Of a DNA stretch of 64,000 nucleotides, positions 1,024 through 45,155 are shown piece after piece. Position 1 is the stretch's first letter; every line of letters begins with the position of its first letter. This DNA is from a virus. Lineage: Duplodnaviria > Heunggongvirae > Uroviricota > Caudoviricetes. A model generated the notes under the pieces. It was not told the DNA's origin. It made no database searches and saw only the letters and a program-made list of their open reading frames with translations. The stretch covers positions 1 to 64,000 of IMG/VR virus record IMGVR_UViG_3300033072_000303; one strand, written 5' to 3'. The position numbers and the translations under genes are program-made.

Positions 1024-1330
1024 AAGCCAAACAGTAGAGTATAAAGGTACTACAAAGTTTAAGTACACTATTACTAGTGACAACGAGGTTAGGATTAAAA
1101 TCCCTGATAGGTTTATTGGAACGGTATTTGAGCAAGGCTGGATTAGTATGTGTAATGAAATGACCCAAGTATTGCTAACAGTGCCTAGAACTGCCACGTT
1201 AAGAGGCAGAACTGGGCAAAAGGTTAGTAAAATAGCGCCAAAAGTACACTTACGTATTGGACAAAAACACGTAGGCAACTATGATATTTTTAATAAGACA
1301 TACACAGAAGTTAAAAAGGAAGTAGAATGA
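1013..1330 (+). CDS. Hypothetical small protein
   Basis: An internal ATG at 1013 follows AGGAG at 1001-1005. The ORF fills the gap between the Prs-like gene and nadV and ends in a TGATG-type overlap with the nadV start. The track ORF 962..1330 gives the longer alternative. Confidence 0.35.
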   Translation: MEIKSQTVEYKGTTKFKYTITSDNEVRIKIPDRFIGTVFEQGWISMCNEMTQVLLTVPRTATLRGRTGQKVSKIAPKVHLRIGQKHVGNYDIFNKTYTEVKKEVE

Positions 1331-13432: not shown

Positions 13433-15523
13433 ATGATATTAGAAAAAGACTTACACGATGTTGAAAGTATAGGTTTTGCTAGTACTAAAGTTGCTGAAAT
13501 AAAAGCTACACCTCAAATGCTAAGAATGCTTAGCTCTGGTATATACTCTGATAAGATAGCAGCCTTTATAAGAGAACTTAGTACAAATGCTTATGATGCA
13601 ATGGTAGAAAATGGTACAATAAGGGACAAAACATTTTATGTTCATTTGCCAACAAAACTTGAGCCTTGGTATTCAATTAGAGATTACGGTAATGGGCTAA
13701 GTAGTACTGGTATGGAAACTAATTTCTCTAATTTTGGTGATGGTACAAAAGCTGAGTCAAACGCTTATAACGGTGCATTTGGGTTAGGTTCTAAGTCACC
13801 TTTAAGCTACGTTAGAGATTTTACAATAACAAGTTATCATAAAGGTACTAAAACATTTTACAACTACGGTAAAAATGATGAAGATGTACCTATGCTTAGT
13901 ACCGCGTATAGTATACCATCAGATGAACCATCTGGATTAGAAATACAAATTGCTATACAGCAAAATGACATACCAGAAGTACTAAGAAAAGCTGAGTTAG
14001 TTTATAGGTACTTTGATAAAAAGCCCGATACAAATGTAACTATAGAGTATCATAAACTTGAAAAAATCCTTTCAGGTGATGATTGGTTTTTAACTACAGG
14101 TGATAAAACTGGTAGCTACGTTTCCACAAGTACCCCTACTAGAGTAGTTATGGGGAACGTAGCTTATCCTATTACTGGTGCTAGTGGTAACATAGCATCG
14201 CTTAACTACACTCCATTAGTTATAATTGCTAATATCGGTGACGTTCAGATGACTCCGTCAAGAGAGTCATTAGAGATGACACCTAAAACTATTAAGTTTC
14301 TTGAAGATAAGTTTAAAGTCATTAAATCAGAGTTATCAACTAATATAGAAAAGACCATAGACCCTGCTTTATCTGGCTTTGATAAAGTTATAAAAGGTAT
14401 TGAAGCATTAAAGGCACTGCCGTCAACTATTAAAACGAACGTAAAAATAGGTGAATATGAGATTCCAACATCAATGTGGCAAAGTATATTTAAGATACCG
14501 AAAGATATTGTTGATTTAGTGTCTTTTAGAATACTGTGTAAAAATCCTGGGTATAGTGATAAGAAAAACTTATTGGTATCCGAAGAGTGGAGACCAAAAG
14601 AAACTAATGACTACAGCTTTTTAGTAGTGGATGACAACAAGCGTGTTGATAGTATTATAGCAGACTTAAAAGATAAGTATAAATATGTGTATGTACTTAG
14701 ATTTAGTAAAATGCCGCCTGCAGAAAAGCTTGCTACATTAGATAAATTCTTAAAATCTTGTGGTAATCCTAAATACATTAAAGCTTCGGATTACATAGCT
14801 ACCTTACCACCTTTGGTTAAAAAACCTAAGGGTACTACCACAAGTACTACTAAGCGTGTAATTGGACTAATAAAAGGGACTGAGCTACGAGTAGGACCTC
14901 AGTATCACGGACTTTGTAGTATAGCCTCTATAGTAATTCACCCTGATGATAAAGGACCGTTTTACTATGTTAAAACTTACAATGGTGAACTGCTAGACCA
15001 TAAGGGTAATAAGCTTTGGGGTTTAACTGGTATTCTATGTAATATCATTCAGAAATTTACTGATAGTCTAGGTAAAAAAGATATAACTATATTATCAGTA
15101 ACTTCACAGTACTACAATAAGGTTGAAAAAGACCCTAGATTTGAGTGTTTATTTAAAACTATTACAGATACTAAGCTTAAAATATCTTGGTTGACAGATA
15201 AAGAATCAATGGACTTTTTAAGTAAAATATCATTTAATAGTAATATTAAAAAGTATGTATCAGCTGAAAAAAGTCCAGACTTAGTAGAGTTACTTAAACT
15301 AAAAGACGAGTATGTATATAATAACTATAAATCTAGTTATGAGTACTTAAATTGTGAAATAATTCCAGCTCAGCCAGTTGATGTTGATAAGCATAAGGAT
15401 AAAGTAGAAAAATATTTGTACTTAAACCATTTATCACACACAGCTCCAGCTGAGTTAGTTGAGTTTATAATAGACCTTATAGAAGATAATAAATTAAATT
15501 TAATACCAAAGGATAAAAAATGA
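13433..15523 (+). CDS. GHKL (Bergerat-fold, Hsp90/MORC-like) ATPase domain protein
   Basis: N-box ELSTNAYDA, G1 box DYGNG and G2 box GAFGLGSKS appear in Hsp90-like order and spacing. The remaining ~450 aa are unassigned. Confidence 0.55.
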   Translation: MILEKDLHDVESIGFASTKVAEIKATPQMLRMLSSGIYSDKIAAFIRELSTNAYDAMVENGTIRDKTFYVHLPTKLEPWYSIRDYGNGLSSTGMETNFSNFGDGTKAESNAYNGAFGLGSKSPLSYVRDFTITSYHKGTKTFYNYGKNDEDVPMLSTAYSIPSDEPSGLEIQIAIQQNDIPEVLRKAELVYRYFDKKPDTNVTIEYHKLEKILSGDDWFLTTGDKTGSYVSTSTPTRVVMGNVAYPITGASGNIASLNYTPLVIIANIGDVQMTPSRESLEMTPKTIKFLEDKFKVIKSELSTNIEKTIDPALSGFDKVIKGIEALKALPSTIKTNVKIGEYEIPTSMWQSIFKIPKDIVDLVSFRILCKNPGYSDKKNLLVSEEWRPKETNDYSFLVVDDNKRVDSIIADLKDKYKYVYVLRFSKMPPAEKLATLDKFLKSCGNPKYIKASDYIATLPPLVKKPKGTTTSTTKRVIGLIKGTELRVGPQYHGLCSIASIVIHPDDKGPFYYVKTYNGELLDHKGNKLWGLTGILCNIIQKFTDSLGKKDITILSVTSQYYNKVEKDPRFECLFKTITDTKLKISWLTDKESMDFLSKISFNSNIKKYVSAEKSPDLVELLKLKDEYVYNNYKSSYEYLNCEIIPAQPVDVDKHKDKVEKYLYLNHLSHTAPAELVEFIIDLIEDNKLNLIPKDKK

Positions 15524-16500
15524 TTAAAGTAAAAGTTGGTGACACAGTTACGCTTAAAGACAATTTGTATGATACTTCGCGTGTGTTCTGTACTAAAAAG
15601 ATGAAAAAATTTGCAGGAGGCACTGTAAAAGTAACCTTTGCAGATTGTGATGGTTGTTTCTTAATCAATGGTTGTGAAGACTATTTTGATTCTGAACATA
15701 TTCTACAAAAACACAAGACGGTTAAAACTGTGAAAAAACCTGAACCAAAAGCGGTTAAAAAACCTGAAACACAGTTTGCTATGATTAGGACTGCAGAAGG
15801 TATTACTGTAATTATAGACTCGGTACCTTATATTGTAAGTAATTCACACGTTAACTATGATAAAATAGTATTATCTATAAAAGAAAAAGAATATCATAAA
15901 ATTCATGATTTAGTAAATATTAGTAAATCAATAGAGTCTTTTGGAGGTGCTAGGTTAGAAGTTAAACAAGGCGTTGTAAAATTTGATGGTAAAGAGCTGC
16001 ACGGATGTATAGTTGATAGTATATTGTCATTAATGAGGGATGGGTTTGATATTAGACCTATTGAAGCGTTTTTAGAAAACTTAAGCCTAAATCCTTCACA
16101 TAGAGCTGTGACTGAATTATATGGTTTCTTAGAATACGGTAAACTACCTATAACTGAAGACGGGTGTTTCTTAACCTACAAAAAAGTTAGAAGAGACTTT
16201 AAAGACATTCATTCTGGTACGTTTGACAACTCTGTAGGTAAAGTTTGTGAGATGCCAAGAAACAAAGTTGATGATGTTTCTACAAATACCTGCTCTACAG
16301 GTCTTCACGTTTGTAGTTATGAGTACACTAAGTCATTTGGTGGACCAGACTCTAGACTTGTTTTATGTAAAGTAAACCCAAGAGATGTTGTATCTATTCC
16401 AGTAGATTATAATAATACTAAAATGAGATGTTGTAGATACGAAGTTGTTGCAGATATCACTGGACAAGGTGATGTATTAAAAGGTAAATCATTATATTAA
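15520..16500 (+). CDS. Hypothetical protein (Cys-rich, 326 aa)
   Basis: Translationally coupled to the GHKL gene through an ATGA overlap. No motif assigned. Confidence 0.5.
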   Translation: MIKVKVGDTVTLKDNLYDTSRVFCTKKMKKFAGGTVKVTFADCDGCFLINGCEDYFDSEHILQKHKTVKTVKKPEPKAVKKPETQFAMIRTAEGITVIIDSVPYIVSNSHVNYDKIVLSIKEKEYHKIHDLVNISKSIESFGGARLEVKQGVVKFDGKELHGCIVDSILSLMRDGFDIRPIEAFLENLSLNPSHRAVTELYGFLEYGKLPITEDGCFLTYKKVRRDFKDIHSGTFDNSVGKVCEMPRNKVDDVSTNTCSTGLHVCSYEYTKSFGGPDSRLVLCKVNPRDVVSIPVDYNNTKMRCCRYEVVADITGQGDVLKGKSLY

Positions 16501-16509
16501 AGGATGTAA

Positions 16510-17622
16510 ATGCGTAAATTAGTTACAATTAGGACAGTTGATAGGTTAATTCCTATCAACGGTTGTGATAATATTTGCTTGGCTGTTATAGATGGTTGGC
16601 AAGTTATCGTTAAGAAAACAGAATTTGTAGTTGGTGATTCTTGTTTATTTTTTGAGATTGATAGTTTTATCCCAGTAAAAGATACGAGATTTCAGTTCTT
16701 AAACAAAGTTACTAAGTTTAATGGTTTTGAAGGTTACAGAATTAAAACCTTAAAAATGAGAGGCGTTTTATCTCAGGGGTTAGCACTACCATTAACTATG
16801 TTTCCAGAGATACAAAATTTCTTTTTGGAAGACTATAGCGAAGCCTTAGGTGTTGTTAAATATGATAATGCAGTTGCTGAGGCTAAAGGTGGACCTAAAG
16901 CTGGTAATTCAGCTGGTAAGTTTCCATCATTTATTCCTAAGACAGACCAAGAAAGGGTACAGAACTTAACATCATACTTTACTACGATGAAGGATGAAGT
17001 ATTTGAAGAGACTTTAAAACTAGATGGCTCTAGTTTAACTTGTTTTACAATGCCAAGACCTAGAACGTGGTTTCAAAAATTACTAAATAAAATAGGGATA
17101 AGAACTGAAATCAAACAAGAGTTTAGAGTTTGTTCTAGAAACCTAGAAATTAAAGAACCACAAAAAGAAGATGAACCTAAAACTTATGATAATAATGGCA
17201 GACCAACCACTGTAAAACAAAGTGATTACTGGACGGTTGTTAAAAAATATAACCTACACAAAAAGATTCCTTTAGGTTTTGCAGTGCAAGGTGAAATGAT
17301 TGGTCCTAAAATTCAAGCTAATCACGAGAAAGTGCACGACCTCGAGTTTTATGCTTTTGACGTGTATGATATAGGTGAATCAAAATACTTGTTACCTCAC
17401 GAAAGAAGAGAGTTTTGTGCTACTTATGATATTCCTCATGTACCTGTTGTTTCGCAAGGAATAAAACCATTTAATATGAGTTTAGAAGAACTTTTAACTC
17501 ACGTTGAAGGAGAGTCTATGAATGCTGGAACAATTTCTGAGGGTAGAGTGTATAAACATATATATAAAGACATCAGTTTTAAAGTTATTAGCAATAGTTA
17601 TTTATTAAAATCAGAAAGGTAA
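16510..17622 (+). CDS. RNA ligase (Rnl, DRB0094/Rnl5-like family)
   Basis: The N-terminus MRKLVTIRTVDRLIPINGCDNICLAVIDGWQVIVKKTEFVVGD..FFEIDSFIP is typical of PF09414-type RNA ligases. Nucleotidyltransferase motif I is present as KLDGSS. Confidence 0.6.
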   Translation: MRKLVTIRTVDRLIPINGCDNICLAVIDGWQVIVKKTEFVVGDSCLFFEIDSFIPVKDTRFQFLNKVTKFNGFEGYRIKTLKMRGVLSQGLALPLTMFPEIQNFFLEDYSEALGVVKYDNAVAEAKGGPKAGNSAGKFPSFIPKTDQERVQNLTSYFTTMKDEVFEETLKLDGSSLTCFTMPRPRTWFQKLLNKIGIRTEIKQEFRVCSRNLEIKEPQKEDEPKTYDNNGRPTTVKQSDYWTVVKKYNLHKKIPLGFAVQGEMIGPKIQANHEKVHDLEFYAFDVYDIGESKYLLPHERREFCATYDIPHVPVVSQGIKPFNMSLEELLTHVEGESMNAGTISEGRVYKHIYKDISFKVISNSYLLKSER

Positions 17623-20369: not shown

Positions 20370-20985
20370 TACTCACACTATGCACCATAAAATACAATTA
20401 CCAGATTTATCAGATATTGACGTAATTGTTCATACTGGTGACTTTAGTAATAGTGATGAAGCAAGTACTGATGTATTTTTATGTTGGTTTGCTGACTTAC
20501 CAGTACCTTGTAAAGTCCTGGTAGCGGGTAATCACGATAAATATGTTATGCACTACAACGATAGATTTAAAATAAAATGTGCTGTATTAGGCATAGAGTA
20601 TCTACAAGACTCTGGATGTGAAATTAATGGCATTAAATTTTGGGGTACACCTTGGGTTAATCAGTTTTATAACTGGGCGTTTATGATGTACGAAAAAGAC
20701 TTAAGTAAAGTTTATAAGTTAATACCTAAAAACACCGAGATTCTACTGTCCCACGGACCAGCTAAAGGTATACTAGACTTTGTTGATAGAGTAGGTGGAG
20801 GTAATGTTGGAGCTATGACGTTAAAAGAGCGTTTAGCTAAACTGCCTAAACTGAAATACCACATCTTTGGTCATATCCACGAGGGTTATGGTATTTTAGA
20901 TACTGGCAGCTACATAGCAGTAAATGCTTCTTCTGTTACAGAATTATATAAACCAGTTAATCAACCTATAATAATAGAGGTGTAA
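20347..20985 (+). CDS. Calcineurin-like metallophosphoesterase
   Basis: Metallophosphoesterase motifs are in order: LSDTH, HTGDFS, AGNHD, SHGP, GHIHEG. Confidence 0.6.
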   Translation: MKILCLSDTHTMHHKIQLPDLSDIDVIVHTGDFSNSDEASTDVFLCWFADLPVPCKVLVAGNHDKYVMHYNDRFKIKCAVLGIEYLQDSGCEINGIKFWGTPWVNQFYNWAFMMYEKDLSKVYKLIPKNTEILLSHGPAKGILDFVDRVGGGNVGAMTLKERLAKLPKLKYHIFGHIHEGYGILDTGSYIAVNASSVTELYKPVNQPIIIEV

Positions 20986-23300
20986 TGAAAAATATAGTAC
21001 AAGCACAACAAACAGGTCTTTTATGGTTTTTAAAAGATAGCTTAACACAAGAGCAACAAGACAGGATTAAAACATACTATACGTATATTAACCCTAAAGA
21101 CCAAGATAATATTTTTAGTACCTTTATAGAGCTAAAAGATAAGATTGGAGTCCCTTATGGAGATAAAGATAAAATTAGAAACTTACTCCAAGTTGAACTA
21201 GAGGTTCAAGATAACAGGATATCCCCTAAGTTTAAAAAGAAAAAAGTTTCTAAGCTTAAATTACGAGACTATCAAGAGCTTGTTATGAAAGATATAATGA
21301 CATTTATAAATAACAATGGAACATCATTTAATTTATCTGGTGAACCTGGTTGCGTTGATAAAGACACAGAGTTTTTATCACTAGATGGTTGGAAGAAAAT
21401 ATCAGAGTACAAAGAAGGGGATTTAGTAGGTACTTATAAAGATGGTATAGTTGAGTTTGAGAAACCTTTAACTTATATCGTTAAACCTTGTGATAAGTGG
21501 ATTAATTTGTATTCTGGTACTAAACACATAGCACAACTTTCAGAAGAGCATAGAGTTGTTTATAAGACCTCTAAAGGTAATATGGCTATAAAGACTGCTA
21601 GTAACTTATTACAAGATAAAAATAGAGTAAATTTAATCACAAATGCTAATGGTAATAATTTAAAAGGTATAGACTTAAGTGATGACTTAATTAGATTACA
21701 ATGTGCTATCGCAGCTGATGGTACTAAGTTACCACAACCTAATAAGTTTAGACTTAATCTTAAAAAGCAGCATAAAATTTCAAGATTGAGAATATTACTA
21801 AAAAATTGTAAAATAGACTACACAGAGTCATTTAGTAATGTTACTGGATACACAGTATTTTATTTTTATGTACCTGATAGACTAGTTAAAAGTCTCCTAC
21901 CTTTTTATAGTTGTAATACTAGACAACTTAAAATCATAGCAGAAGAAGTTTTATTATGGGATGGCTCACAATCACAACGTACTTTTTATAGTACTATAAA
22001 AGAAGAGGCTGACTTTGTTCAATACTGTTTTACGTTACAAGGATATACTGCTAGTATGGTTATTGATGATAGAATAGGAGAACAGCAGGGTAAATACACA
22101 AGAAAGAGTAAAACATACGAGGTTAGACTAACCAAAGATAGTTCTATAGCTTTAAATTTTAAATCTGTTGGTAGATGTCCAGACACGATATCAGAAGTTC
22201 CTGCTGAGCCTAATGATTTAAAATACTGCTTTACAGTGTCATCTGGTATGTTCTTTATTCGTAAAAATTTAAAAGTACATGTTACTGGTAATTCAGGGAA
22301 AAGTTTCATGTTAGCAAATATATTAGCAAATCTTGGAACTAAAACCCTTATTATTGCTCACTTAAGTCAACTAACAAAACAGTTAGCAAAAGAGATAGAA
22401 GCAGTTCTTGGGTATAAACCTCAGATATTAGATAAAGACACAAAAGAGTTAGCTGATATTAATATAGCGACTTCTCAACTTATATCTAAAAATCCTGATT
22501 TATGGTACCTTATAAAGAAAGGTATAGGTTGTATAGTTATAGATGAAGCAGAAACTCTAGCATCTTTAAGTACATTAAGAATTGTACAAAGAGCTCACGC
22601 TAAATACCATATATTTATATCTGCTACATTCACTAGGTCAGTAGACCATAGAACTGAGGCTTTAATAGATTTTGCTGGACCTAACGTGTTTACACTTAAA
22701 AACCCTGCTCTGTTAAAACCACAAGTTATAACAGTTCAATGTTCAGAAACTTTTACAGCGCCTATGGATACAAAGTTATATAACTTAGCACGAGGTAGAT
22801 TTTATAAACGTGACTCTATATCTGATAAAGTTTTGTTAATTACTAAAGCATCGTTAAGAAAAAATAGACAAGTGCTGATAGCATGTGATGTAGTAGAACT
22901 ACAGCTTAAGTTAAAAGACTTATTGACAGACATTGGTATTAAGTCTGAATGTATTAACTCTGGTACTAAAGCGTCTTTGAGAGATTCTGCGATGGTAGAC
23001 TTTGATAATGGTGACTTACAAGTATTAATTGGTTTTGGTACACTAAATGCTGGTTTAAGTATACCTAAGATTAGTACTATTATAAGAGTCGCTACACCCA
23101 GTTCACAAGAAAAATTAGAGCAACTTATCGGTAGAGCACGAAGAGACTTTGATGGTAAAGACGGAGCATTTGTTATAGACCTTATGTTTCAAGGGTTTAA
23201 CAATGATAGTCGTTTAAAGTTATATAAAAAGAAACGAAGACAAGATGATTGGAAACTTAATCAAACAACTTGGGACGAGTTTGAAAGGAAGATAAAATGA
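20985..23300 (+). CDS. SF2 (DEAD/DEAH, UvsW-like) helicase interrupted by an intein
   Basis: Extein motifs are RDYQ, a Walker A rebuilt as GEPG|SGKS across the insert, VIDEAE (motif II), ISATFTR (motif III) and IGRARR (motif VI). A 314-aa insert starts with Cys and ends with Asn before a Ser at +1. Confidence 0.65.
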   Translation: MKNIVQAQQTGLLWFLKDSLTQEQQDRIKTYYTYINPKDQDNIFSTFIELKDKIGVPYGDKDKIRNLLQVELEVQDNRISPKFKKKKVSKLKLRDYQELVMKDIMTFINNNGTSFNLSGEPGCVDKDTEFLSLDGWKKISEYKEGDLVGTYKDGIVEFEKPLTYIVKPCDKWINLYSGTKHIAQLSEEHRVVYKTSKGNMAIKTASNLLQDKNRVNLITNANGNNLKGIDLSDDLIRLQCAIAADGTKLPQPNKFRLNLKKQHKISRLRILLKNCKIDYTESFSNVTGYTVFYFYVPDRLVKSLLPFYSCNTRQLKIIAEEVLLWDGSQSQRTFYSTIKEEADFVQYCFTLQGYTASMVIDDRIGEQQGKYTRKSKTYEVRLTKDSSIALNFKSVGRCPDTISEVPAEPNDLKYCFTVSSGMFFIRKNLKVHVTGNSGKSFMLANILANLGTKTLIIAHLSQLTKQLAKEIEAVLGYKPQILDKDTKELADINIATSQLISKNPDLWYLIKKGIGCIVIDEAETLASLSTLRIVQRAHAKYHIFISATFTRSVDHRTEALIDFAGPNVFTLKNPALLKPQVITVQCSETFTAPMDTKLYNLARGRFYKRDSISDKVLLITKASLRKNRQVLIACDVVELQLKLKDLLTDIGIKSECINSGTKASLRDSAMVDFDNGDLQVLIGFGTLNAGLSIPKISTIIRVATPSSQEKLEQLIGRARRDFDGKDGAFVIDLMFQGFNNDSRLKLYKKKRRQDDWKLNQTTWDEFERKIK
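21351..22292 (+). mobile_element. Intein with LAGLIDADG homing-endonuclease domain, inserted in the helicase P-loop
   Basis: The N-terminus is CVDKDTEFLSLDGW..EGDLV (Hint block A), with GTKH in block B. Two LAGLIDADG-like motifs are present: LIRLQCAIAADGT and IIAEEVLLWDGSQ. The C-terminus is KVHVTGN|S. Excising it restores GEPGSGKS. Confidence 0.55.
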
Positions 23301-23728: not shown

Positions 23729-24783
23729 TAAAAGATAAAATAAAAGAATTAGAGATTGCTCACGATATCAGAGTTATATACTTGATAAAAAGCGGTTCAG
23801 CCCTATATGGTACTAATTCAGATAGTTCTGATACGGATTATATGGGTATTTTTATACCTAGTGCTAGGTCAGTAATGCTGAAAAAAGACCTAGAACATAT
23901 ATGTCTAACTACTGGTGAAGCTAACTCTAGAAACTCTGCAGATGATGAAGACTTACAACTATGGAGTATTTATAAATTCCTACATCTGGTAAAGAAAGGT
24001 GAAACTGGTGCGTTAGATTTATTATTTAGTTTTAACGCTAAACACTCATCTGAAATACACGTAATAAACGACACAATGTACACAGATACGATAACAGAAA
24101 ATATACCTAAGCTTGTATCAAAAAACTTACAAGCTTTTGTTGGTTACTGCCTAGGACAAGCTAAAAAGTACAATATAAAAGGTGAAAGGTATTCTGAAGT
24201 AGAAGTCTTCTATAGAGAATTTAAAGAACTTGAAGTAAAGACTACTAAAAGTTCTTTACATACTATACATAGGACACTAGAAGATATAATAGATAAGGCT
24301 AGGTTTAAATACATTAAGTTAGTAAGGGCAAGAGGACCAAAAAGGTTTACAGAAGAAGATATTTGGTACATTGAAATACTAGGCAGAAAACACGCTTTAG
24401 ATATCTCTATAGCAGAATTCACAGCTCGTATAGACAAACTATTCAACTCTTTTGGAGCAAGAGTTATAGCCGCAGCTGACGGTGTAGACAATAAAGCTTT
24501 AAGCCACGCTACAAGAGTTATCTTAGAGTGTAAAGAGTTACTAGAAAAAGGTTATATTACATTCCCATTACCATCTGCTGAGTTTATTAAAGAAATAAAA
24601 TATCATAAAGACTTAGTTAATGGTACTCCAGAAAATCCTGGATTAACTTTAGAAAGTATTATGGTTTTATTAGAAAGAACTTTAGATGATGTTAATAGGT
24701 TACTAGAAGATTCAGAGTTACCTGATAAAGTATCAGAGGAATTAATAACAGAAATGTTAATAGAAATAATGGAGATAGTATGA
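23725..24783 (+). CDS. Pol-beta-superfamily nucleotidyltransferase (minimal NTase fold)
   Basis: SGSALYGTNSDSSDTDYMGIF fits hG[GS]x(9-13)Dh[DE]h. It is ATGA-coupled to the CCA-adding enzyme gene. Confidence 0.45.
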   Translation: MIKDKIKELEIAHDIRVIYLIKSGSALYGTNSDSSDTDYMGIFIPSARSVMLKKDLEHICLTTGEANSRNSADDEDLQLWSIYKFLHLVKKGETGALDLLFSFNAKHSSEIHVINDTMYTDTITENIPKLVSKNLQAFVGYCLGQAKKYNIKGERYSEVEVFYREFKELEVKTTKSSLHTIHRTLEDIIDKARFKYIKLVRARGPKRFTEEDIWYIEILGRKHALDISIAEFTARIDKLFNSFGARVIAAADGVDNKALSHATRVILECKELLEKGYITFPLPSAEFIKEIKYHKDLVNGTPENPGLTLESIMVLLERTLDDVNRLLEDSELPDKVSEELITEMLIEIMEIV

Positions 24784-26093
24784 TGTTTAACACACCGAAT
24801 GTGTATGTTGTAGGTGGTGCTGTAAGAGATATTCTTATGGGTGTACAACCTAGAGATATAGACTACGTTGCAGTAGGTTTAACTGCACAGCAACTAATAG
24901 ATGATGGTTTCGTTCCTATAGATGCTGAATTCCCTGTTTTCCTTGACCCTAATGATAACTCAGAAGTAGCTTTGGCTCGTAGAGAAAAAAGCACTGGTAA
25001 AGGTTATAAAGACTTTACCACTGACACGTCTGATGTAACTTTAGAAGAAGATTTAAGAAGACGTGACTTAACAATTAATGCTATGGCTATGGATTCTGAA
25101 AAAACTATTATAGACCCATTTGGAGGACAGAAAGACCTACAGTCTAAAATATTAAGGCATACTTCTGACGCGTTCTTTGAAGACCCCTTAAGAGTATTAA
25201 GGTTAGCAAGATTTCAAACTAAGTACCCAGACTTTAGGATTCATGAAAGTACTATAGAAATTGTTAAAGCAAACAAAGACTCGCTTAAAGCTTTGACTCC
25301 TGAAAGAGTACAAAAAGAAATGTATAAAGCTTTAGAGTACAAGTACCCTAGTTTGTACTTTAGAACACTAGAGTTTTTAGGTGTTTTGGATTTAGTTCAT
25401 CCAGAACTTTATGATATGAAGCAATGTATTCAAAAACCTACACATCACGCAGAAGGTGACGTTTTTCTACACTCTATGATGGTATTAGATGAATGCGCTA
25501 AGTTATCTAAGGATGTTAACACTAGATTAGGAGCACTTTACCACGATATAGCAAAACCTATATGCGATGTTAAAAAACAAGGTTTTCATAAAGGTCACGA
25601 TGGTATTAATGTAGTACAACCTTTAGTACAAGAATTAAAAAATAGGTATAAGCTTCCTAATAAAGCTGAGAAGCGTATTGTCCAAGGTGCTTTATTTCAT
25701 ATGAAGCTACACAAATTAAAAGATATGAATTCTAGTACTATTGCAAGTATGTTTAACGATAAGTTCTTTCCAAAAACTAAAGAAGATTTAATTCAGTTAC
25801 TATGTATAAGCGTAGCTGATTCAAGAGGTAGAATCACAATCGGGTATGATAAAGAGGAAGTAAATGTTGATGCTATAGTTAATACTTTTAACGCTATTAA
25901 GGCGTATAGCCCAAAAGCTGAAATTGAAGAATATAACAAAAGACATCTTGATGATGGTAAAACTGCTAATCCAGAACTGATTAAACAAATGATTCATAAA
26001 TACTCTATTAAGTGTGTTGACGCTTGGTTAAGACCTCATTATACTATATCTAAAGATAAACAAGATAACTATACTAAACATCTCTTAAGTTAA
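24780..26093 (+). CDS. cca: CCA-adding tRNA nucleotidyltransferase with HD domain
   Basis: The class II head is VVGGAVRDILMG..RDIDYV. The HD domain is present as HHAEGDVFLHSMMVLD and LYHDIAKP. Confidence 0.75.
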   Translation: MMFNTPNVYVVGGAVRDILMGVQPRDIDYVAVGLTAQQLIDDGFVPIDAEFPVFLDPNDNSEVALARREKSTGKGYKDFTTDTSDVTLEEDLRRRDLTINAMAMDSEKTIIDPFGGQKDLQSKILRHTSDAFFEDPLRVLRLARFQTKYPDFRIHESTIEIVKANKDSLKALTPERVQKEMYKALEYKYPSLYFRTLEFLGVLDLVHPELYDMKQCIQKPTHHAEGDVFLHSMMVLDECAKLSKDVNTRLGALYHDIAKPICDVKKQGFHKGHDGINVVQPLVQELKNRYKLPNKAEKRIVQGALFHMKLHKLKDMNSSTIASMFNDKFFPKTKEDLIQLLCISVADSRGRITIGYDKEEVNVDAIVNTFNAIKAYSPKAEIEEYNKRHLDDGKTANPELIKQMIHKYSIKCVDAWLRPHYTISKDKQDNYTKHLLS

Positions 26094-26160
26094 GTTTAAG
26101 CAAACTTTCGGTAAACTATCTTTACCGCTGAAAGGGAGCTAAACCTATTATATAGCTAGT
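26085..26160 (+). promoter_or_regulatory. Conserved promoter-like intergenic element, copy B
   Basis: Same 76-nt element as copy A, with an identical 3' 45 nt. It overlaps the cca stop and ends 39 nt before the ATG at 26200. Confidence 0.45.
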
Positions 26161-26199
26161 TACTAGCTAATTTTCTAAAAATAATTTATAAGGATAAAT

Positions 26200-27561
26200 A
26201 TGACTCTTTCTATAAGTACTATCTGTAAAATCCTACAAGGGCTAATAGATACAAAAGGTACAAATGATAAAGAAACTTACTTATCTAATGTATGTAATAA
26301 TCCAGAAGTTAAACATCTATTAACTATACTGTTAGATTCTAAGTATACACTAGGTATAAAAAAGTTAGGAGATATTAAAGTGTCTTCTGATAAAACAATA
26401 AGGAATTTTGATGAACTGAAACAACTATTAGATACACTAAATTCTAGTAATATAAATGACTCTTTAAGAGAGCAAGTTATTAAGTTTTTAGGCGGGTGTA
26501 CTAAAGAAGACCAAAGCATCTTAAAAGGTATATTCCAAAAAACCTTAAAATTAGGTGTTACTAGTAAAACGTTCTCAAAAGTATTTAAAGGAGTGATTAA
26601 AGAACATCCTATCGCATTAGCAAAAAGTCCTACTGAAGCAGTACCGCCAATACCTTGTATAGTTAGTACTAAGTACGATGGTATTAGGTACACACAAGTA
26701 AAGGTTGTAGTAAATGAAGATAACTCAGTTGATATAGGTACTGCTCTTACTAGAGACCGTAATGTAATGAGATTTAAAAGGATTGAGAACGGTATTAAAC
26801 AGTTACTTAATAACCAAGTTGGTGAATGGGTTATAGATGGTGAACTAGAAACATTAGATGAAGACTTCGATAAAATCCAAGGAGTAGTTAGCTCTAATAT
26901 AGATAACAAGGTATATGAAGATGGAAATAACCTAAAGCTTACTGTATTTGATATTATTAGATATTCTGATTATATTGGTGAAACTAAATCTAAACCACAA
27001 TCTGAAAGACTAAAAGATTTAAGCAGGTTGTTCATAATAAATAAACCAACTGGTTTAGTGGAAGCTGAACATATAACTGTGTACTCACTAGAAAAGATTA
27101 AAGAACTTACTGATGAAAAAATTAATAAAGGGCTTGAGGGTACAATTATTAAAGACCCAAAAGCAAATTATAAAAAAGGAAAAACATCAGCTTGGATTAA
27201 ACAAAAAGCTATAAATGACTGCACATTAAAATGTGTTGGTGTTACTATATCTGACAATAACAAAAGGGCTGGTAAAGTTGGTGCTTTATGTATGGAGTCA
27301 AGTGATGGTTTAATTAAAGTTAATGTAGGTTCTGGGTTGTCCGACGACTTAGTTGAATTATATACAAAGACACCTCCTATTGGTAAGTTCTTTGATGTAC
27401 TTTTCAACCAAGTTTCTCAGGCAGAGGATTTACAAATGAGTTTAAGGTTACCTAGACTTAAAGGAGCTAGAATTGATGTTGTTGAAGCTGATAGCTTTGA
27501 GAAAATAAAAGCGCAACATATTGGTGCGATGAAATTAAAAGGAGATAAAGATGAAGATTAA
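26200..27561 (+). CDS. ATP-dependent DNA ligase
   Basis: Motif I KYDGIR, motif IV EGTIIKDP and motif V WIKQK, with a T7-ligase-like overall layout. Confidence 0.75.
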   Translation: MTLSISTICKILQGLIDTKGTNDKETYLSNVCNNPEVKHLLTILLDSKYTLGIKKLGDIKVSSDKTIRNFDELKQLLDTLNSSNINDSLREQVIKFLGGCTKEDQSILKGIFQKTLKLGVTSKTFSKVFKGVIKEHPIALAKSPTEAVPPIPCIVSTKYDGIRYTQVKVVVNEDNSVDIGTALTRDRNVMRFKRIENGIKQLLNNQVGEWVIDGELETLDEDFDKIQGVVSSNIDNKVYEDGNNLKLTVFDIIRYSDYIGETKSKPQSERLKDLSRLFIINKPTGLVEAEHITVYSLEKIKELTDEKINKGLEGTIIKDPKANYKKGKTSAWIKQKAINDCTLKCVGVTISDNNKRAGKVGALCMESSDGLIKVNVGSGLSDDLVELYTKTPPIGKFFDVLFNQVSQAEDLQMSLRLPRLKGARIDVVEADSFEKIKAQHIGAMKLKGDKDED

Positions 27562-30431: not shown

Positions 30432-30689
30432 ATGCTACCGTACAAGGAAGTGTTAACTATACACGAAGATACAGAAGGAGTGTATAAAAAGATGTCTGGG
30501 TCTGGGTATACTATAACAGGTGTGGCTAAAGAATACCTTTTACACGCAGCTCTTATGTTTATACGTAATGATAATAATGATTATTACTGTGTAAAAAATA
30601 GAATAACTGGTGTCACAGGACCAATGACAATAGCTGAAGTGGATAAACTACAAAAAGAATATTTCAATAGAAGGGGTCTAAATGGTTAA
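30432..30689 (+). CDS. Hypothetical protein
   Basis: 85 aa. Overlaps the DNA polymerase gene start. Confidence 0.4.
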   Translation: MLPYKEVLTIHEDTEGVYKKMSGSGYTITGVAKEYLLHAALMFIRNDNNDYYCVKNRITGVTGPMTIAEVDKLQKEYFNRRGLNG

Positions 30690-33393
30690 AGAACTAAAAT
30701 TAATACCAAATTCAACACCTGATACAGCAGTACTAATAAAAGATTACGATGTTACTGAAAAGAATAAAACAAACTTAATGTATAGGTACATTCAAAAGTT
30801 AACAGCTTTAGGTGTTGAAAAACCAGGATTTAGATTTACATTTTTAGGGTTAGTACAAAACCCAGACTCTAAGAAAAAAGTAAATAAAACAGTGGCTTTA
30901 GAGTGTTTAGGTAATATCCTAGAGCACTGTGACATTCAAGGTATAACTACATTATTATGTACTGACGCTACGTATTTTCAGCTACTTACAGGTAGAAGTA
31001 AATTAGAAGAAAGTATTGATGGAGTGTATAAAGTAGTGATAACGGGTTTTGAGCATATTACTGTGTTGCCTAGTTTACACTATAACGCTTTAATAATGGC
31101 TCCACAAAAAGAATCAGTACTTGAAAAATCGCTTAAAGTACTAGCTATGCACTTAAACGGAAGCTATTCCAAACCTGGTGCAGATGTACTTAAAGATTAC
31201 ACTAAGTGTTATTCAGCAAACGAGTTAAAGAGAGTATTAAACGAATACATGGTTCTCCCAGAAATAACTTGTGATATTGAGGCTACTCATTTAAAGTTTT
31301 ATAAATCTGAGTTACTTACAATAGCCTTTGGTAAAGATAAGCACACCGCTATGACTTGTGCTGTACATCATTTGTATCATAATCAGCTAGAGTCAAATAG
31401 TATTAAACAAGTACTTAAAGAATTCTTTATTAACTATAAAGGTAAAGTATGGTTTCATAACGCACTATTTGACGTTAAGCAACTAACATACAGACTATTT
31501 ATGAGGAGTTTAGACGACTTTACAGGGATGCAAGAAGGTTTAGATGCTTTCGAGAATGTACACGATACATTTATGGTTGCTTACTTAGCTAAGAACTCAA
31601 CGTACCGTCAAGGGTTAGGATTAAAAGAACTATCTAAAGAGTTTATGGGTGAATACGCAGAGGATGTTAAAGAGGCAATAAAAGTTCCGTTAGAAGACTT
31701 AATGCTGTATAACGCAAAAGACTGCTGTGCTACTTGGTATGTACTAGATACGTATAGACCTATAATGATTCAAGATGACCAACAGTATGTGTATGACACA
31801 ATAATGCAACCTAGTATGAAGCCATTGCTTAAGATGATGCTTACTGGTTTGCCAATAGACTTAGGAAGAACCGAAGAGGCTAGAATCGAGCTACAAGCTA
31901 AACTAGATGATGCAGTAAATACCCTTAATAAGTCACACTATGTTAAGCGTGCTGTTTCAGTTTTAAAGTATAATGCTGCTGAAAAGTACAATGCTACACA
32001 TAAGACTAAAAAGATAAATGCAAATGATGTTGAACTGGAGTTTAATCCTAACTCATCAGACCAATTAAGACTATTATTATTTGAAATCTTAGGGTTTGAA
32101 GAAATAGAGAAAACTAAAGCTGGTAAGTCTAGTACTAAAAGAAATTTTATAGAGGAATACCTAGCAGAGGCTAAAGCTGACGGCGAGTCTGATGTAGTTT
32201 CTTGCTTAGAGGCTTTAGTAAATGTTTCTCAGATAAGTATTATATTGAACACTTTTATAACAGCTTTTGAAGAGCTTAGTGTTGAGCATCCAAGTGGTTA
32301 TAAATTCCTTAAGGGTAATTTAAAACTAGGTGGAACACAATCAGGAAGACTGTCTAGTTCTGAACCTAACTTACAAAACTTACCATCTGGTTCAAAGTAT
32401 GGTAAAATTATTAAGAACTGCTTTGTTGCACCAAAAGGTTGGCTGTTCGCTGGAGCAGACTTTAGCGCCCTCGAAGATAGAATAGGGGCAATCCTAAGTA
32501 ACGATATGAATAAGACAAAGGAATTTGCCTACGGGTTTGACGGTCATAGTTTACGTGCTTTAGCATTCTTTCCAGAAGAGCTACCAGAAGGCTTATCTAT
32601 TGATTCACTAGAGGATAATAAACTTATAAAGAAACAATACGGTGACATTAGAGGTAAGTCAAAAGGACCATCGTTTGCAATGCAATACGGGTGTGGTCCT
32701 GGAAAAATACAACAGTTACTAAAATGCTCTAAAGCAAAAGCTGAAGAAGTCTACTCAGCGTTTCATAATCTATATTCAGGGTTATCTAAATTTGCTCAAG
32801 TTAATAAAATCCAAGGTATGACTAATGGGTATGTAACAGGAGCCTTTGGATTAAGACTTAGAACTCCTAAGCTGAAAGCACACAGAGCTGGTACTAAAGA
32901 GTCTACCGAGGTAGGTTCTGAAGCGCGTTCTGCCTCTAATATGGTTACACAGTCTTGGGGTATGTTGATGAATAGAGCTTTAATTGAGTTTAATCAGAGA
33001 CTTGAAAACTCAGAATTCAAACATAAAGTTAGACTTATTAATACTATACACGATGCTGGTTATCTATTAGTTAAAGCTGAGCCAGAAGTGGTAGAGTGGG
33101 TTAATATTAACTTTGTAGAGTGCATGAAATGGCAGGACGGATTAATTGCTTCTGATGAAGTTAAAATGGAGGCTGAAGTAGACTTTGGTCTAGATTGGGC
33201 ACATCAAGAAACGTTACATAACAACGCGTCTAAAGAGGAGTGTAAAGCTTTTATAGATGCTATTAATATGTATGACTCAGTTAAACATCTTGAGTATAAC
33301 AATCAACCAGTAAAATTTAACGTTGTGTATAAACTAGCACTAGAAGGTTTTGACAATCTATCAAAATTAATAACAAAATTAAGCGAAGTTTAA
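30682..33393 (+). CDS. Family A DNA polymerase with 3'-5' exonuclease domain
   Basis: Exo I is TCDIEATH, Exo II is WFHNALFDVKQL, Exo III is YNAKD. Pol motif A is ADFSALEDRIGA and motif B is RGKSKGPSFAMQYGCG. Motif C reads IHDAG, HDA rather than HDE. An N-terminal extension of about 190 aa is unassigned. Confidence 0.85.
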   Translation: MVKELKLIPNSTPDTAVLIKDYDVTEKNKTNLMYRYIQKLTALGVEKPGFRFTFLGLVQNPDSKKKVNKTVALECLGNILEHCDIQGITTLLCTDATYFQLLTGRSKLEESIDGVYKVVITGFEHITVLPSLHYNALIMAPQKESVLEKSLKVLAMHLNGSYSKPGADVLKDYTKCYSANELKRVLNEYMVLPEITCDIEATHLKFYKSELLTIAFGKDKHTAMTCAVHHLYHNQLESNSIKQVLKEFFINYKGKVWFHNALFDVKQLTYRLFMRSLDDFTGMQEGLDAFENVHDTFMVAYLAKNSTYRQGLGLKELSKEFMGEYAEDVKEAIKVPLEDLMLYNAKDCCATWYVLDTYRPIMIQDDQQYVYDTIMQPSMKPLLKMMLTGLPIDLGRTEEARIELQAKLDDAVNTLNKSHYVKRAVSVLKYNAAEKYNATHKTKKINANDVELEFNPNSSDQLRLLLFEILGFEEIEKTKAGKSSTKRNFIEEYLAEAKADGESDVVSCLEALVNVSQISIILNTFITAFEELSVEHPSGYKFLKGNLKLGGTQSGRLSSSEPNLQNLPSGSKYGKIIKNCFVAPKGWLFAGADFSALEDRIGAILSNDMNKTKEFAYGFDGHSLRALAFFPEELPEGLSIDSLEDNKLIKKQYGDIRGKSKGPSFAMQYGCGPGKIQQLLKCSKAKAEEVYSAFHNLYSGLSKFAQVNKIQGMTNGYVTGAFGLRLRTPKLKAHRAGTKESTEVGSEARSASNMVTQSWGMLMNRALIEFNQRLENSEFKHKVRLINTIHDAGYLLVKAEPEVVEWVNINFVECMKWQDGLIASDEVKMEAEVDFGLDWAHQETLHNNASKEECKAFIDAINMYDSVKHLEYNNQPVKFNVVYKLALEGFDNLSKLITKLSEV

Positions 33394-35339: not shown

Positions 35340-35666
35340 ATGAGCATTAGAACAAGATTAAATAAAGCGACTAATTTTACTAGAAAAGCTAAGGCTATAG
35401 CAAGAGTAGGTAACTACTACCAACTAAGTAAAAACACGTCAGTAAACGGTGTGGAGTATAACAACATAACTAAAGCCCACAAACAAGTACCGTTTAGGCT
35501 GCCTAAATTAGGATTAAACACAGTATTTAATTACTTATTAAAAGATATAAAAGGAAGGACTGAACTTATGACTTATGCTTCTATTCAGCAAAAAATTGCA
35601 GAGTTAAGTACTAACAAAATAAATAATGAACTTGATGAATTACAAAAAGAAGGTGGTGACGCTTAA
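35340..35666 (+). CDS. Hypothetical protein
   Basis: 108 aa. RBS AAGGATG upstream. ATGA-type coupling into nrdA. Confidence 0.45.
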   Translation: MSIRTRLNKATNFTRKAKAIARVGNYYQLSKNTSVNGVEYNNITKAHKQVPFRLPKLGLNTVFNYLLKDIKGRTELMTYASIQQKIAELSTNKINNELDELQKEGGDA

Positions 35667-44865: not shown

Positions 44866-45155
44866 TGAATGAGGTAATGATTGCAGAATTTTATAATAGA
44901 CTAAAAACTGAGCTAGGTGTATCTATAAGGGTAGCCAGAGAGATTCATAAAGGGTATAAAGCAGTATATTTAGCTTGTATAGCTAATGGTGAGTCCTTTC
45001 AACTACCTGGAATAGGTTTTATAGAACTACGTCCTTACACAGATACACAAGCTCGTAACCCTAAGACTAAAAGTATGGTTGAGCGTCAGGCTAAATATAA
45101 GATAATATTTTCAGCGTCAAAAACTGCTAAACGACTAATAGGAAAAAGGGTATGA
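44865..45155 (+). CDS. HU/IHF-family DNA-binding protein
   Basis: Beta-arm signature ELRPYTDTQARNPKTKSMV. 96 aa. Confidence 0.7.
   Translation: MNEVMIAEFYNRLKTELGVSIRVAREIHKGYKAVYLACIANGESFQLPGIGFIELRPYTDTQARNPKTKSMVERQAKYKIIFSASKTAKRLIGKRV

What the first reader, a model, noticed from the sequence alone, without database searches (positions are those of the whole stretch)
21351..22292. LAGLIDADG intein inserted in the Walker A loop of an SF2 helicase
The helicase motif I is split as ...LSGEPG | C...N | SGKSF.... A 314-aa insert begins CVDKDTEF..DGW (Hint block A) and contains two LAGLIDADG-like motifs (LQCAIAADGT, LLWDGSQ). It ends in Asn before Ser+1 and lacks the usual penultimate His. 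Splicing would restore GEPGSGKS. Its size, position and apparently intact endonuclease domain suggest an active mobile element.
Basis: partly seen in the sequence, partly recalled or inferred. Interest (0 to 1): 0.55.

Follow-up and report, generated by a model that had tools for sequence, protein, structure and literature searches.

The report
Mobile intein splitting a phage helicase
A 314-residue self-splicing protein insert (an intein carrying its own homing endonuclease) sits exactly in the ATP-binding loop of a phage helicase. It is real and probably still mobile, and it is a new member of an already known, very large phage intein family rather than a new kind of element.

Summary
Window 21351-22292 is a precise in-frame 942-bp insertion in a 771-aa SF2 helicase ORF (20985-23300). 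It splits the Walker A motif as GEPG|C...TGN|SGKS.

A syntenic intein-free relative has contiguous GEPGSGKS. The DNA alignment breaks exactly at 21349/22293.

An AlphaFold model (pLDDT 93.7) matches endonuclease-bearing inteins (TliVMA, PI-SceI, PI-PfuI) and I-DmoI. Both LAGLIDADG aspartates (D123, D204) are present.

The same insert, at 30-40% identity, occurs in terminases, PhoH, RtcB, RecD-like and primase-helicase proteins and a metallophosphoesterase. It matches 13,387 protein clusters.

Among helicase orthologues, full, mini and intein-free alleles interleave. Some intein+/intein- pairs have 94-98% identical exteins.

The missing penultimate His is a family trait (TGN). Two relatives have been studied experimentally: the mycobacteriophage Bethlehem gp51 intein, which splices, and the AceL NrdHF class 3 split intein.

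Verdict: a new member of a known kind.

Two points remain open. The family keeps both Cys1 and a class-3-type block-F Cys invariant. Some intein-free relatives carry small frameshifting insertions exactly at the homing site.

The parts
20985..23300 (+). Helicase precursor gene (771 aa plus stop): N-extein, intein and C-extein in one ORF
   Evidence: ORF list. Pfam ResIII 428-551, DEAD 437-554, Helicase_C 623-720. An identical 771-aa protein (P0169) lies on an 86-kb JGI contig.
20985..21350 (+). N-extein, 122 aa, ending ...NLSGEPG (first half of Walker A)
   Evidence: Aligns to intein-free orthologues at 63-81% identity.
21351..22292 (+). Intein, 314 aa: HINT splicing domain with a nested LAGLIDADG homing endonuclease
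   Evidence: AF2 model pLDDT 93.7. Foldseek top hits are TliVMA, PhoVMA, PI-SceI and PI-PfuI inteins. Family profile E=4e-108. The alignment with the empty-site allele L002 breaks at exactly these ends.
21351..21353 (+). Cys1 codon (block A nucleophile)
   Evidence: Cys in 169/169 family members.
21540..21557 (+). Block B core: Ser64 (B:7), His67 (B:10), Arg68 (B:11), Val69 (B:12)
   Evidence: His67 is invariant. Position 64 is S/C/T. Position 69 is V/I/M/L and never Trp in the six commonest residues. These residues align with S65-H68-R69-M70 of AceL NrdHF (PMC7891396).
21651..22205 (+). Homing endonuclease domain (about aa 101-285), the part missing from mini-inteins at the same site
   Evidence: Foldseek matches to I-DmoI and I-Tsp061I. 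Alignment with the 142-146-aa mini-inteins P0187, P0203 and P0250.
21687..21722 (+). LAGLIDADG motif 1 (LIRLQCAIAADG, Asp123)
   Evidence: Helix 111-123 in the model. Asp123 is conserved in 164/169 members and Gly124 in 159/169.
21933..21965 (+). LAGLIDADG motif 2 (IIAEEVLLWDG, Asp204)
   Evidence: Helix 190-204 in the model. Trp203 168/169, Asp204 163/169, Gly205 158/169.
22227..22229 (+). Cys293 codon, block F position 4 (KYCFTV)
   Evidence: Cys in 169/169 members. It aligns with residue 124 of AceL NrdHF (Ala in the C124A crystal), which is that intein's proven branch-point Cys (PMC7891396).
22284..22292 (+). Thr312-Gly313-Asn314 (G:5-G:7), the C-terminal splice junction
   Evidence: Thr 93%, Gly 95%, Asn 100% in the family. 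The same T-G-N|S occurs in AceL NrdHF and in Bethlehem gp51.
22293..23300 (+). C-extein, 335 aa plus stop, starting Ser+1-GKSF (second half of Walker A) and holding the helicase core
   Evidence: 84-90% identical to intein-free or interrupted orthologues.

Best explanation
The segment is a full-length intein. The helicase is translated as a 771-aa precursor whose ATP-binding loop is interrupted. The HINT domain then excises the 314 residues and joins Gly122 to Ser437, restoring GEPGSGKS and an active helicase.

The most likely chemistry (inferred) is the standard class 1 route. Cys1 makes a thioester at the N-junction, the N-extein is transferred to Ser+1, Asn314 cyclises to release the intein, and an O-to-N shift makes the peptide bond. 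The missing block-G and block-F histidines are probably compensated by Arg68 (B:11), as in the close relative AceL NrdHF.

At the DNA level (inferred) the nested two-motif LAGLIDADG endonuclease cuts intein-free helicase alleles at GGT|TCN during co-infection. Repair then copies the intein in, which is homing.

Shown here: the fold, the catalytic residue set, the precise insertion, and the sporadic distribution across hosts and alleles. Not shown here: splicing and DNA cleavage themselves.
For: - Precise in-frame insertion in Walker A. The syntenic empty site in L002 breaks the alignment at 21349/22293.
- High-confidence model (pLDDT 93.7, pTM 0.89). Its best matches are endonuclease-bearing inteins (7qsu E=2e-12, PI-SceI, PI-PfuI), and the centre matches I-DmoI.
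- Homologous inserts at 30-40% identity occur in unrelated hosts: terminase large subunits, PhoH, RtcB, AAA_28, T2SSE and a metallophosphatase. They occur in 156 cultured phage records and 13,387 cluster representatives.
- In 169 full-length members, C1, H67, C293 and N314 are invariant and the +1 residue is always C/S/T.
- In the helicase family, 14 clusters carry a full intein, 3 a mini-intein and about 56 none, interleaved on the extein tree. Intein+/intein- pairs have 94-98% identical exteins.
- The mini-intein P0187 looks like a deletion derivative of a P0191-like full intein.
- The Bethlehem gp51 intein belongs to the family (E=4e-17; C1, Cys at F:4, TGN|S). It was shown to splice completely and to be toxic through its endonuclease (PMC5050341).
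Against: - No experiment exists on this allele.
- Pfam and NCBIfam intein models do not detect it.
- Both histidines usually needed for Asn cyclisation (F:13, G:6) are absent.
- The window copy departs from the family consensus at a few block F/G positions (K305, L307, H310 instead of R, N/G, F).
- Its nearest same-site relatives are only 55-56% identical, so recent homing of this particular copy is not demonstrated.
- The invariant Cys at F:4 is unexplained by a plain class 1 scheme.
Confidence: 0.85

Rival explanations
1. It is an intein, but it splices by a class-3-like or hybrid route. The invariant block-F Cys293 would carry the N-extein as a branched thioester, either taking it from the Cys1 thioester or attacking the N-junction directly, before passing it to Ser+1.
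For: - Cys293 is invariant in 169/169 members, and Thr312 (G:5) is 93% conserved.
- The best solved-structure match of the HINT-only profile is the AceL NrdHF class 3 intein (E=1.6e-9). The family Cys falls on its Cys124 and Thr312 on its Thr144.
- AceL NrdHF also has S-x-x-H-R in block B, a non-Trp B:12, no F:13 or G:6 His, and ends TGN|S. It was proven to use Cys124 as first nucleophile (PMC7891396).
Against: - Cys1 is also invariant, which a pure class 3 mechanism would not require.
- Trp at B:12 is absent.
- Class 1 inteins with Cys at F:4 are known and polyphyletic (PMC3196547).
- The family member Bethlehem gp51 was treated as class 1 (PMC5050341), though no C1A or F:4 mutants are reported in the passages read.
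Confidence: 0.2
2. It is a domesticated or decaying intein. It still splices, but its endonuclease is inactive, so it is now inherited only vertically.
For: - The homing cycle predicts such stages. Mini-inteins lacking the endonuclease exist at the same site.
- This copy is only 55-56% identical to its nearest same-site relatives.
- The only near-identical copy found (P0169) is the same protein on a JGI contig.
Against: - Both LAGLIDADG aspartates and the conserved Lys138/Lys139 and Lys217 are intact.
- The endonuclease domain is modelled with high confidence.
- There are no frameshifts or stops.
- Related alleles show recent gain or loss (94-98% identical exteins with and without the intein).
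Confidence: 0.2
3. The 314 residues are a permanent structural or regulatory domain of the helicase, or a HINT/BIL-type domain that only cleaves. In this view it is not a splicing element.
For: Standard intein HMMs in Pfam and NCBIfam give no hit.
Against: - Orthologues about 80% identical lack the insert and have an intact P-loop.
- The insert would separate the Walker A glycines from the GKS, so the helicase could not bind ATP without excision.
- A nucleophilic +1 residue and a terminal Asn are invariant. Splicing requires both, and type B BILs lack them.
- Relatives splice experimentally.
Confidence: 0.02

Closest known systems
Mycobacteriophage Bethlehem gp51 (RDF / metallophosphoesterase) intein (Kelley et al. 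2016, PMC5050341)
   Same: It matches the family profile at E=4e-17. It is 317 aa with a nested LAGLIDADG domain, Cys1, [ST]-x-x-H in block B with Val at B:12, Cys at F:4 (VWCLRVP), and the ending Thr-Gly-Asn|Ser. Experimentally it splices to completion. Its endonuclease is toxic in E. coli, and changing the penultimate Gly to His slows splicing.
   Different: Its host protein and insertion site differ: the HEGNHD|C motif of a phosphoesterase, not a P-loop. Its N-terminal block (CSWTNA...) is more diverged than the CVDKDTEF consensus. It comes from an actinobacteriophage.
AceL NrdHF naturally split class 3 intein (PDB 6ZGQ; Hoffmann et al. 2020, PMC7891396)
   Same: It is the best solved-structure match of the HINT-only profile (E=1.6e-9). 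It shares Ser at B:7, His at B:10, Arg at B:11, a non-Trp B:12, Cys at F:4 followed by x-x-V-P-G, no His at F:13 or G:6, and the ending Thr-Gly-Asn|Ser. It has a phage-like metagenomic origin.
   Different: It has Ala1 instead of Cys1. It is split into two genes with a free-standing GIY-YIG endonuclease between them rather than a nested LAGLIDADG domain. It lies in NrdHF. Its class 3 mechanism is proven, whereas the mechanism here is unknown.
Endonuclease-bearing VMA and polymerase inteins (PI-SceI, TliVMA, PhoVMA, PI-PfuI)
   Same: Same overall architecture: a HINT domain with a nested two-motif LAGLIDADG domain. These are the best Foldseek matches (E 2e-12 to 1e-7, TM about 0.6). The VMA inteins also interrupt a P-loop just before the x-GKT residues (my own knowledge, not tested here).
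   Different: Sequence identity is only 10-15%. They have the canonical His-Asn ending and a non-Cys F:4. PI-SceI has an extra DNA-recognition region. Their hosts are archaeal or eukaryotic.
Canonical class 3 (WCT) inteins, e.g. mycobacteriophage Bethlehem DnaB, Msm/Mch DnaB1
   Same: Cys at F:4, Thr at G:5, Ser/Thr at +1, phage association, and mostly LAGLIDADG-bearing (PMC2807308, PMC7891396).
   Different: They lack a nucleophile at position 1 and have Trp at B:12. They keep the penultimate His. The family profile does not hit their solved structures at E<=10.

Membership tests
Intein (HINT self-splicing domain), class 1 | Cys, Ser or Thr at intein position 1 | tested here: met
   Cys1. Invariant in 169/169 family members.
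Intein (HINT self-splicing domain), class 1 | Block B T/S-x-x-H | tested here: met
   Ser64-Glu-Glu-His67. His is invariant.
Intein (HINT self-splicing domain), class 1 | C-terminal Asn followed by Cys/Ser/Thr at +1 | tested here: met
   Asn314|Ser+1. In the family Asn is 100% conserved and +1 is C/S/T in all members.
Intein (HINT self-splicing domain), class 1 | Penultimate His (G:6) and block F His (F:13) and Asp (F:4). These are usual but not obligatory. | tested here: not met
   Gly313, Gly299 and Cys293 occupy these positions. Splicing without these residues is documented (PMC5050341, PMC7891396; Chen et al. 2000, cited).
Intein (HINT self-splicing domain), class 1 | HINT fold | tested here: met
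   AF2 model pLDDT 93.7. Foldseek hits to solved inteins. Profile hits to intein and hedgehog chains.
Intein (HINT self-splicing domain), class 1 | Excision with ligation of the exteins | not testable with these tools
   Indirect only. Excision restores GEPGSGKS, and relatives splice.
Class 3 intein | Cys at block F position 4 | tested here: met
   Cys293 is invariant and aligns with Cys124 of AceL NrdHF.
Class 3 intein | Thr at G:5 | tested here: met
   Thr312, 93% conserved in the family.
Class 3 intein | Trp at B:12 | tested here: not met
   Val69. The family has V/I/M/L/C/F here. The atypical class 3 intein AceL NrdHF has Met.
Class 3 intein | No nucleophile at position 1 (original definition) | tested here: not met
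   Cys1 is invariant.
Class 3 intein | Obligate block-F branched thioester intermediate | not testable with these tools
   Needs C1A, C293A and S+1A mutants and thiol-lability assays.
LAGLIDADG homing endonuclease (single-chain, two-motif) | Two LAGLIDADG helices, each ending in an acidic residue followed by Gly | tested here: met
   Asp123-Gly124 and Asp204-Gly205 lie at the ends of helices 111-123 and 190-204.
LAGLIDADG homing endonuclease (single-chain, two-motif) | Pseudo-dimeric alpha-beta-beta-alpha-beta-beta-alpha fold | tested here: met
   Foldseek matches to I-DmoI (E about 4e-5), I-Tsp061I, and the endonuclease domains of PI-SceI and PI-PfuI.
LAGLIDADG homing endonuclease (single-chain, two-motif) | Site-specific cleavage of the intein-free allele | not testable with these tools
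   Indirect only: interleaved intein+/intein- alleles and small insertions clustered at the site in intein-free alleles.
Mobile (homing) genetic element | Precise insertion relative to an empty site in a syntenic relative | tested here: met
   L002 has the same gene order, a 457-aa helicase, and an alignment break at 21349/22293.
Mobile (homing) genetic element | Sporadic distribution among close orthologues and presence in unrelated host genes | tested here: met

The most novel reading that the evidence does not exclude
This helicase P-loop and its intein family may hold two new things.

[quoted passage not shown] The proven class 3 intein AceL NrdHF would then be a derived member that lost Cys1, which implies a second, divergent origin of the class 3 mechanism.

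(b) Intein-free relatives that carry conserved 1-, 2- or 4-nt insertions exactly at the homing site may be endonuclease-resistant alleles. They could be kept functional by ribosomal frameshifting, for example +1 at CCC-AGG, which would restore a perfect GxPGAGKS.
Probability: 0.2. Interest if true: 0.7.

Novelty: new member of a known kind. Interest (0 to 1): 0.35.

Why it matters
As found, it adds one more insertion site, motif I of an SF2 helicase, to a huge and poorly annotated phage intein family. It also shows the full homing cycle (empty, occupied, endonuclease-deleted) within one gene family.

Practically, the family escapes Pfam and NCBIfam. It contaminates PHROG 32482: the helicase's best PHROG hit is 'PhoH-like' only because of the intein, so it causes misannotation.

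If the two-cysteine reading is right, the family would be a direct experimental handle on how class 3 splicing arose. Published work disagrees on whether it arose by divergence or convergence (PMC7664689). Fast TGN-type inteins are also of interest as protein-ligation tools.

Tried and rejected
- Pfam and NCBIfam scans of the insert gave nothing usable. The only Pfam hit was DUF6164 at E=0.07, taken as chance.
- A single-sequence PDB search gave only a chance ribosomal-protein hit. The profile searches were needed.
- Megablast of the gene against cultured phages found no match. The phage has no close cultured relative: its DNA polymerase is 37% identical to those of Pectobacterium and Kosakonia phages of about 75 kb.
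- I looked for further copies of the intein in the window and found none.
- I tried to read Tori & Perler 2011 (PMC3133030) and Nicastri et al. 2013 (PMC3801215), on WCT inteins with Cys1 and on Cys1/internal-Cys disulfides. Neither is held, and term searches gave nothing. Those points therefore rest on secondary citations or my own memory.
- I considered that the short C-extein-only ORFs were split inteins or intron-interrupted genes. The DNA shows only 1-4-nt insertions and no intervening element.
- I first took dN/dS=0.08 in both halves of the interrupted genes as proof of long-term function. I then weakened that claim. The region around the site is much more similar than the rest of the gene, so the interrupted patch may have moved by recombination.
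- The antisense ORF 22019..22309 inside the intein is treated as spurious.
Full report
**1. The observation**

The window holds one long ORF, 20985..23300 (+), of 771 aa. Residues 123-436, encoded by 21351-22292 (942 nt, 314 aa), start CVDKDTEFLSLDGW and end KVHVTGN. The flanks read ...NLSGEPG and SGKSFMLAN... Removing the segment creates GEPGSGKS, a canonical Walker A. Pfam places ResIII/DEAD and Helicase_C downstream of the insert. The penultimate residue is Gly, not His. GC content does not differ between insert (30.6%) and exteins (31.8%).

**2. It is an insertion, not a helicase domain**

A search with the spliced 457-aa extein found 85 orthologous clusters.
- About 56 are 444-468 aa with a contiguous GxxGSGKS, the closest about 80% identical.
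- 14 carry a 299-322-aa insert at exactly the same place.
- 3 carry a 142-146-aa version.

One intein-free relative, L002, has the same gene order as the window: DNMK-like kinase, 165-aa ORF, metallophosphatase, helicase, RlaP, tRNA nucleotidyltransferase. The spliced extein DNA aligns with it in one 1364-nt HSP (75.6% identity). The unspliced window aligns up to 21349 and again from 22293, while the subject coordinates run on without a gap. T5-like Vibrio and Providencia phage helicases also align across the junction in one piece.

**3. What the insert is**

Pfam and NCBIfam do not recognise it. The only library hit is PHROG 32482 'PhoH-like' (E=2e-33), which evidently contains the same insert.

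A sequence search found 22 homologues at 31-39% identity. They are embedded in quite different proteins: terminase large subunits, PhoH, RtcB, AAA_28, T2SSE and a metallophosphatase. All begin G|C[VL]D and end [TS][GK]N|[SC].

With an alignment of 17 of them (A1), AlphaFold gave a confident model (pLDDT 93.7, pTM 0.89). Its best PDB matches are endonuclease-containing inteins: TliVMA at 2e-12, then PhoVMA, PI-SceI and PI-PfuI. The middle of the model matches the single-chain LAGLIDADG enzymes I-DmoI and I-Tsp061I.

Their acidic residues, Asp123 and Asp204, are 97% and 96% conserved. Lys138/Lys139 and Lys217 are conserved too. So the structure is a HINT domain with a nested, apparently intact LAGLIDADG endonuclease.

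**4. Size and signature of the family**

An exhaustive profile search found 13,387 cluster representatives at E<=1e-3 and 1,953 at E<=1e-30. In the 169 full-length domains available to me:
- Cys1, His67 (B:10), Cys293 and Asn314 are invariant.
- Thr312 is 93% and Gly313 95% conserved, and Arg304 99%.
- The residue before the intein is Gly in 90%.
- The +1 residue is always Cys, Ser or Thr.

Most insertions are of the form G|xGK[ST], that is, in P-loops. The missing penultimate His is therefore the family norm.

The family is present in 156 cultured phage records: RtcB of Pseudomonas and Bacillus phages, PhoH of Acinetobacter phages, primase-helicase of the KIL phages, and Vibrio, Mycobacterium and Staphylococcus phages. 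In the rows shown it is not annotated as an intein.

**5. Known relatives**

(a) *Bethlehem gp51.* Mycobacteriophage Bethlehem gp51 ('may contain intein') holds a 317-aa member (profile E=4e-17) with Cys1, TANH-RV, VWC at F:4 and HLTGN|S. Kelley et al. showed that this 'RDF' intein splices completely. Its endonuclease is toxic, and Gly316His causes precursor accumulation (PMC5050341).

(b) *AceL NrdHF.* A HINT-only profile (A2) has as its best solved-structure match the AceL NrdHF split intein (6ZGQ, E=1.6e-9). The next match is far weaker (0.009). The family Cys aligns with the Ala that replaces Cys124 in that crystal, Thr312 with Thr144, and His67/Val69 with His68/Met70.

The paper reports Ala1, an 'MCT' triplet, no His at F:13 or G:6, and a Gly145-Asn146|Ser ending. 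Arg69 (B:11) compensates at the C-junction, G145H kills activity, and the class 3 mechanism through Cys124 is proven (PMC7891396). The window intein has the matching Arg68.

Canonical WCT class 3 inteins are not hit. The literature records that class 1 inteins with Cys at F:4 exist and are polyphyletic (PMC3196547; PMC4031507).

**6. Mobility**

On a neighbour-joining tree of the C-exteins, full-intein, mini-intein and intein-free alleles are thoroughly interleaved. Pairs with and without the intein have 97.6%, 96.1% and 94.1% identical exteins (P0178/P0173, P0183/P0172, P0180/P0177), so gains or losses are recent.

Same-site inteins are 32-90% identical to each other. The window's intein is closest to other helicase-site inteins (55-56%) rather than to those in other hosts (<=40%), as expected for an allelic homing lineage. 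The mini-intein P0187 retains fragments of a P0191-like endonuclease region. All stages of the homing cycle are thus represented.

For the window copy itself, recent movement is not shown. The only near-identical sequence (P0169) is the same protein on an 86-kb JGI contig.

**7. Mechanism**

The best-supported reading is a class 1 intein: Cys1 thioester, transfer to Ser+1, Asn314 cyclisation. Splicing of the P-loop is a precondition for helicase activity, and the LAGLIDADG enzyme homes to GGT|TCN. The steps are inferred from residue conservation and from the two studied relatives; nothing was measured here.

The open point is the invariant Cys293, together with Thr312 and the kinship with a proven class 3 intein. 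A relay through Cys293 cannot be excluded, and I put it at about 0.2. A redox switch by a Cys1-Cys293 disulfide is another possibility. That idea is from my own knowledge of other inteins and was not tested.

**8. Side observation at the same site**

Eleven of the 85 orthologue clusters are 'C-extein-only' ORFs. In all eight loci I read, the helicase has no intein but a small insertion within about 10 nt of the homing site:
- TCCG tandem duplication exactly at GGT|TCCG (L003-5)
- +C in the Ser+1 codon (L006-8)
- +TA after the Pro codon (L009, L013)
- +C in the +1 codon (L010)
- +C giving CCC-AGG (L011/12, L014, L015)

All are insertions, and each occurs in several samples. Deleting the inserted bases, or a +1 ribosomal shift in the 1-nt cases, restores a perfect P-loop.

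Both halves show dN/dS of 0.07-0.2. However, L009 and L013 are 91-97% identical for about 120 nt around the site against 77% overall. L009 is also closer overall to an uninterrupted allele (L016) than to L013. The interrupted patch may therefore travel by recombination, and the selection argument is weakened.

I cannot decide between three readings: scars of endonuclease cutting, endonuclease-resistant alleles rescued by frameshifting, or plain pseudogenes.

**9. Verdict**

It is a new member, at a new insertion site, of a known kind: a phage LAGLIDADG intein of the 'Cys1 ... Cys(F:4) ... Thr-Gly-Asn' family, with experimentally characterised relatives. By itself it is of modest interest. The two-cysteine signature and the interrupted homing-site alleles are the parts worth an experiment.

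Noticed in passing
Related loci L003-L015 (helicase P-loop region, e.g. L003:4990-5030, L006:3990-4030, L009:1585-1620, L010:1740-1775, L011:2530-2560, L013:1470-1500, L014:200-240, L015:1465-1500): Intein-free relatives of the helicase carry small frameshifting insertions (+1, +1, +1, +2, +4 nt; no deletions) within about 10 nt of the intein insertion point. These split the gene into two open, conserved halves. 11 of 85 orthologue clusters are of this type. Three diverged lineages share CCC-AGG, where a +1 ribosomal shift would restore GxPGAGKS. Possible readings are endonuclease scars, endonuclease-resistant alleles, or programmed frameshifting.
   Followed up: partly
L009:1545-1665 vs L013, and L014:195-240 vs L015: Around the interrupted site the DNA of diverged lineages is far more similar than the rest of the gene (91-97% vs 77%). 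L014 and L015 share an identical GC-rich stretch, CCCAGGCGCGGGCAAGAGCT, in genes otherwise 52% identical. This suggests patch-wise recombination or a constraint at the nucleotide level.
   Followed up: partly
Proteins P0187, P0203, P0250 (orthologues of window 20985-23300): Mini-inteins of 142-146 aa occupy the same Walker A site. P0187 keeps scraps of the endonuclease region of a P0191-like full intein, so it is an in situ deletion derivative.
   Followed up: yes
window 20985-23297 (whole helicase): The best PHROG hit of the helicase is phrog_32482 'PhoH-like phosphate starvation-inducible' (E=4e-38). That hit is due solely to the intein (insert alone: E=2e-33). Pfam and NCBIfam intein models miss the family, so automatic annotation would be misleading.
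   Followed up: yes
Proteins P0023-P0029, P0039, P0045, P0058 (deep-search hits): Several metagenomic proteins of 850-1300 aa contain two or three inteins of this same family in one polypeptide, for example P0023 at 148-450 and 605-928. The second type sits at ...EGE|CF... sites rather than in P-loops.
   Followed up: no
window 22019-22309 (- strand): A 96-aa antisense ORF lies wholly inside the intein coding region. It is most likely a chance ORF in AT-rich sequence.
   Followed up: no
window 1315-3006, 13433-17619, 24729-27558, 30682-33390, 35660-37510, 45131-46774, 57774-60470: Context is a large lytic phage with no close cultured relative. Genes include nicotinamide phosphoribosyltransferase, rIIA-like, RNA ligase, tRNA nucleotidyltransferase, ATP-dependent DNA ligase, family A DNA polymerase (37% to Pectobacterium and Kosakonia phages of about 75 kb), RNR large subunit, SbcC-like protein, and a large tail-fibre-like protein on the minus strand.
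   Followed up: partly
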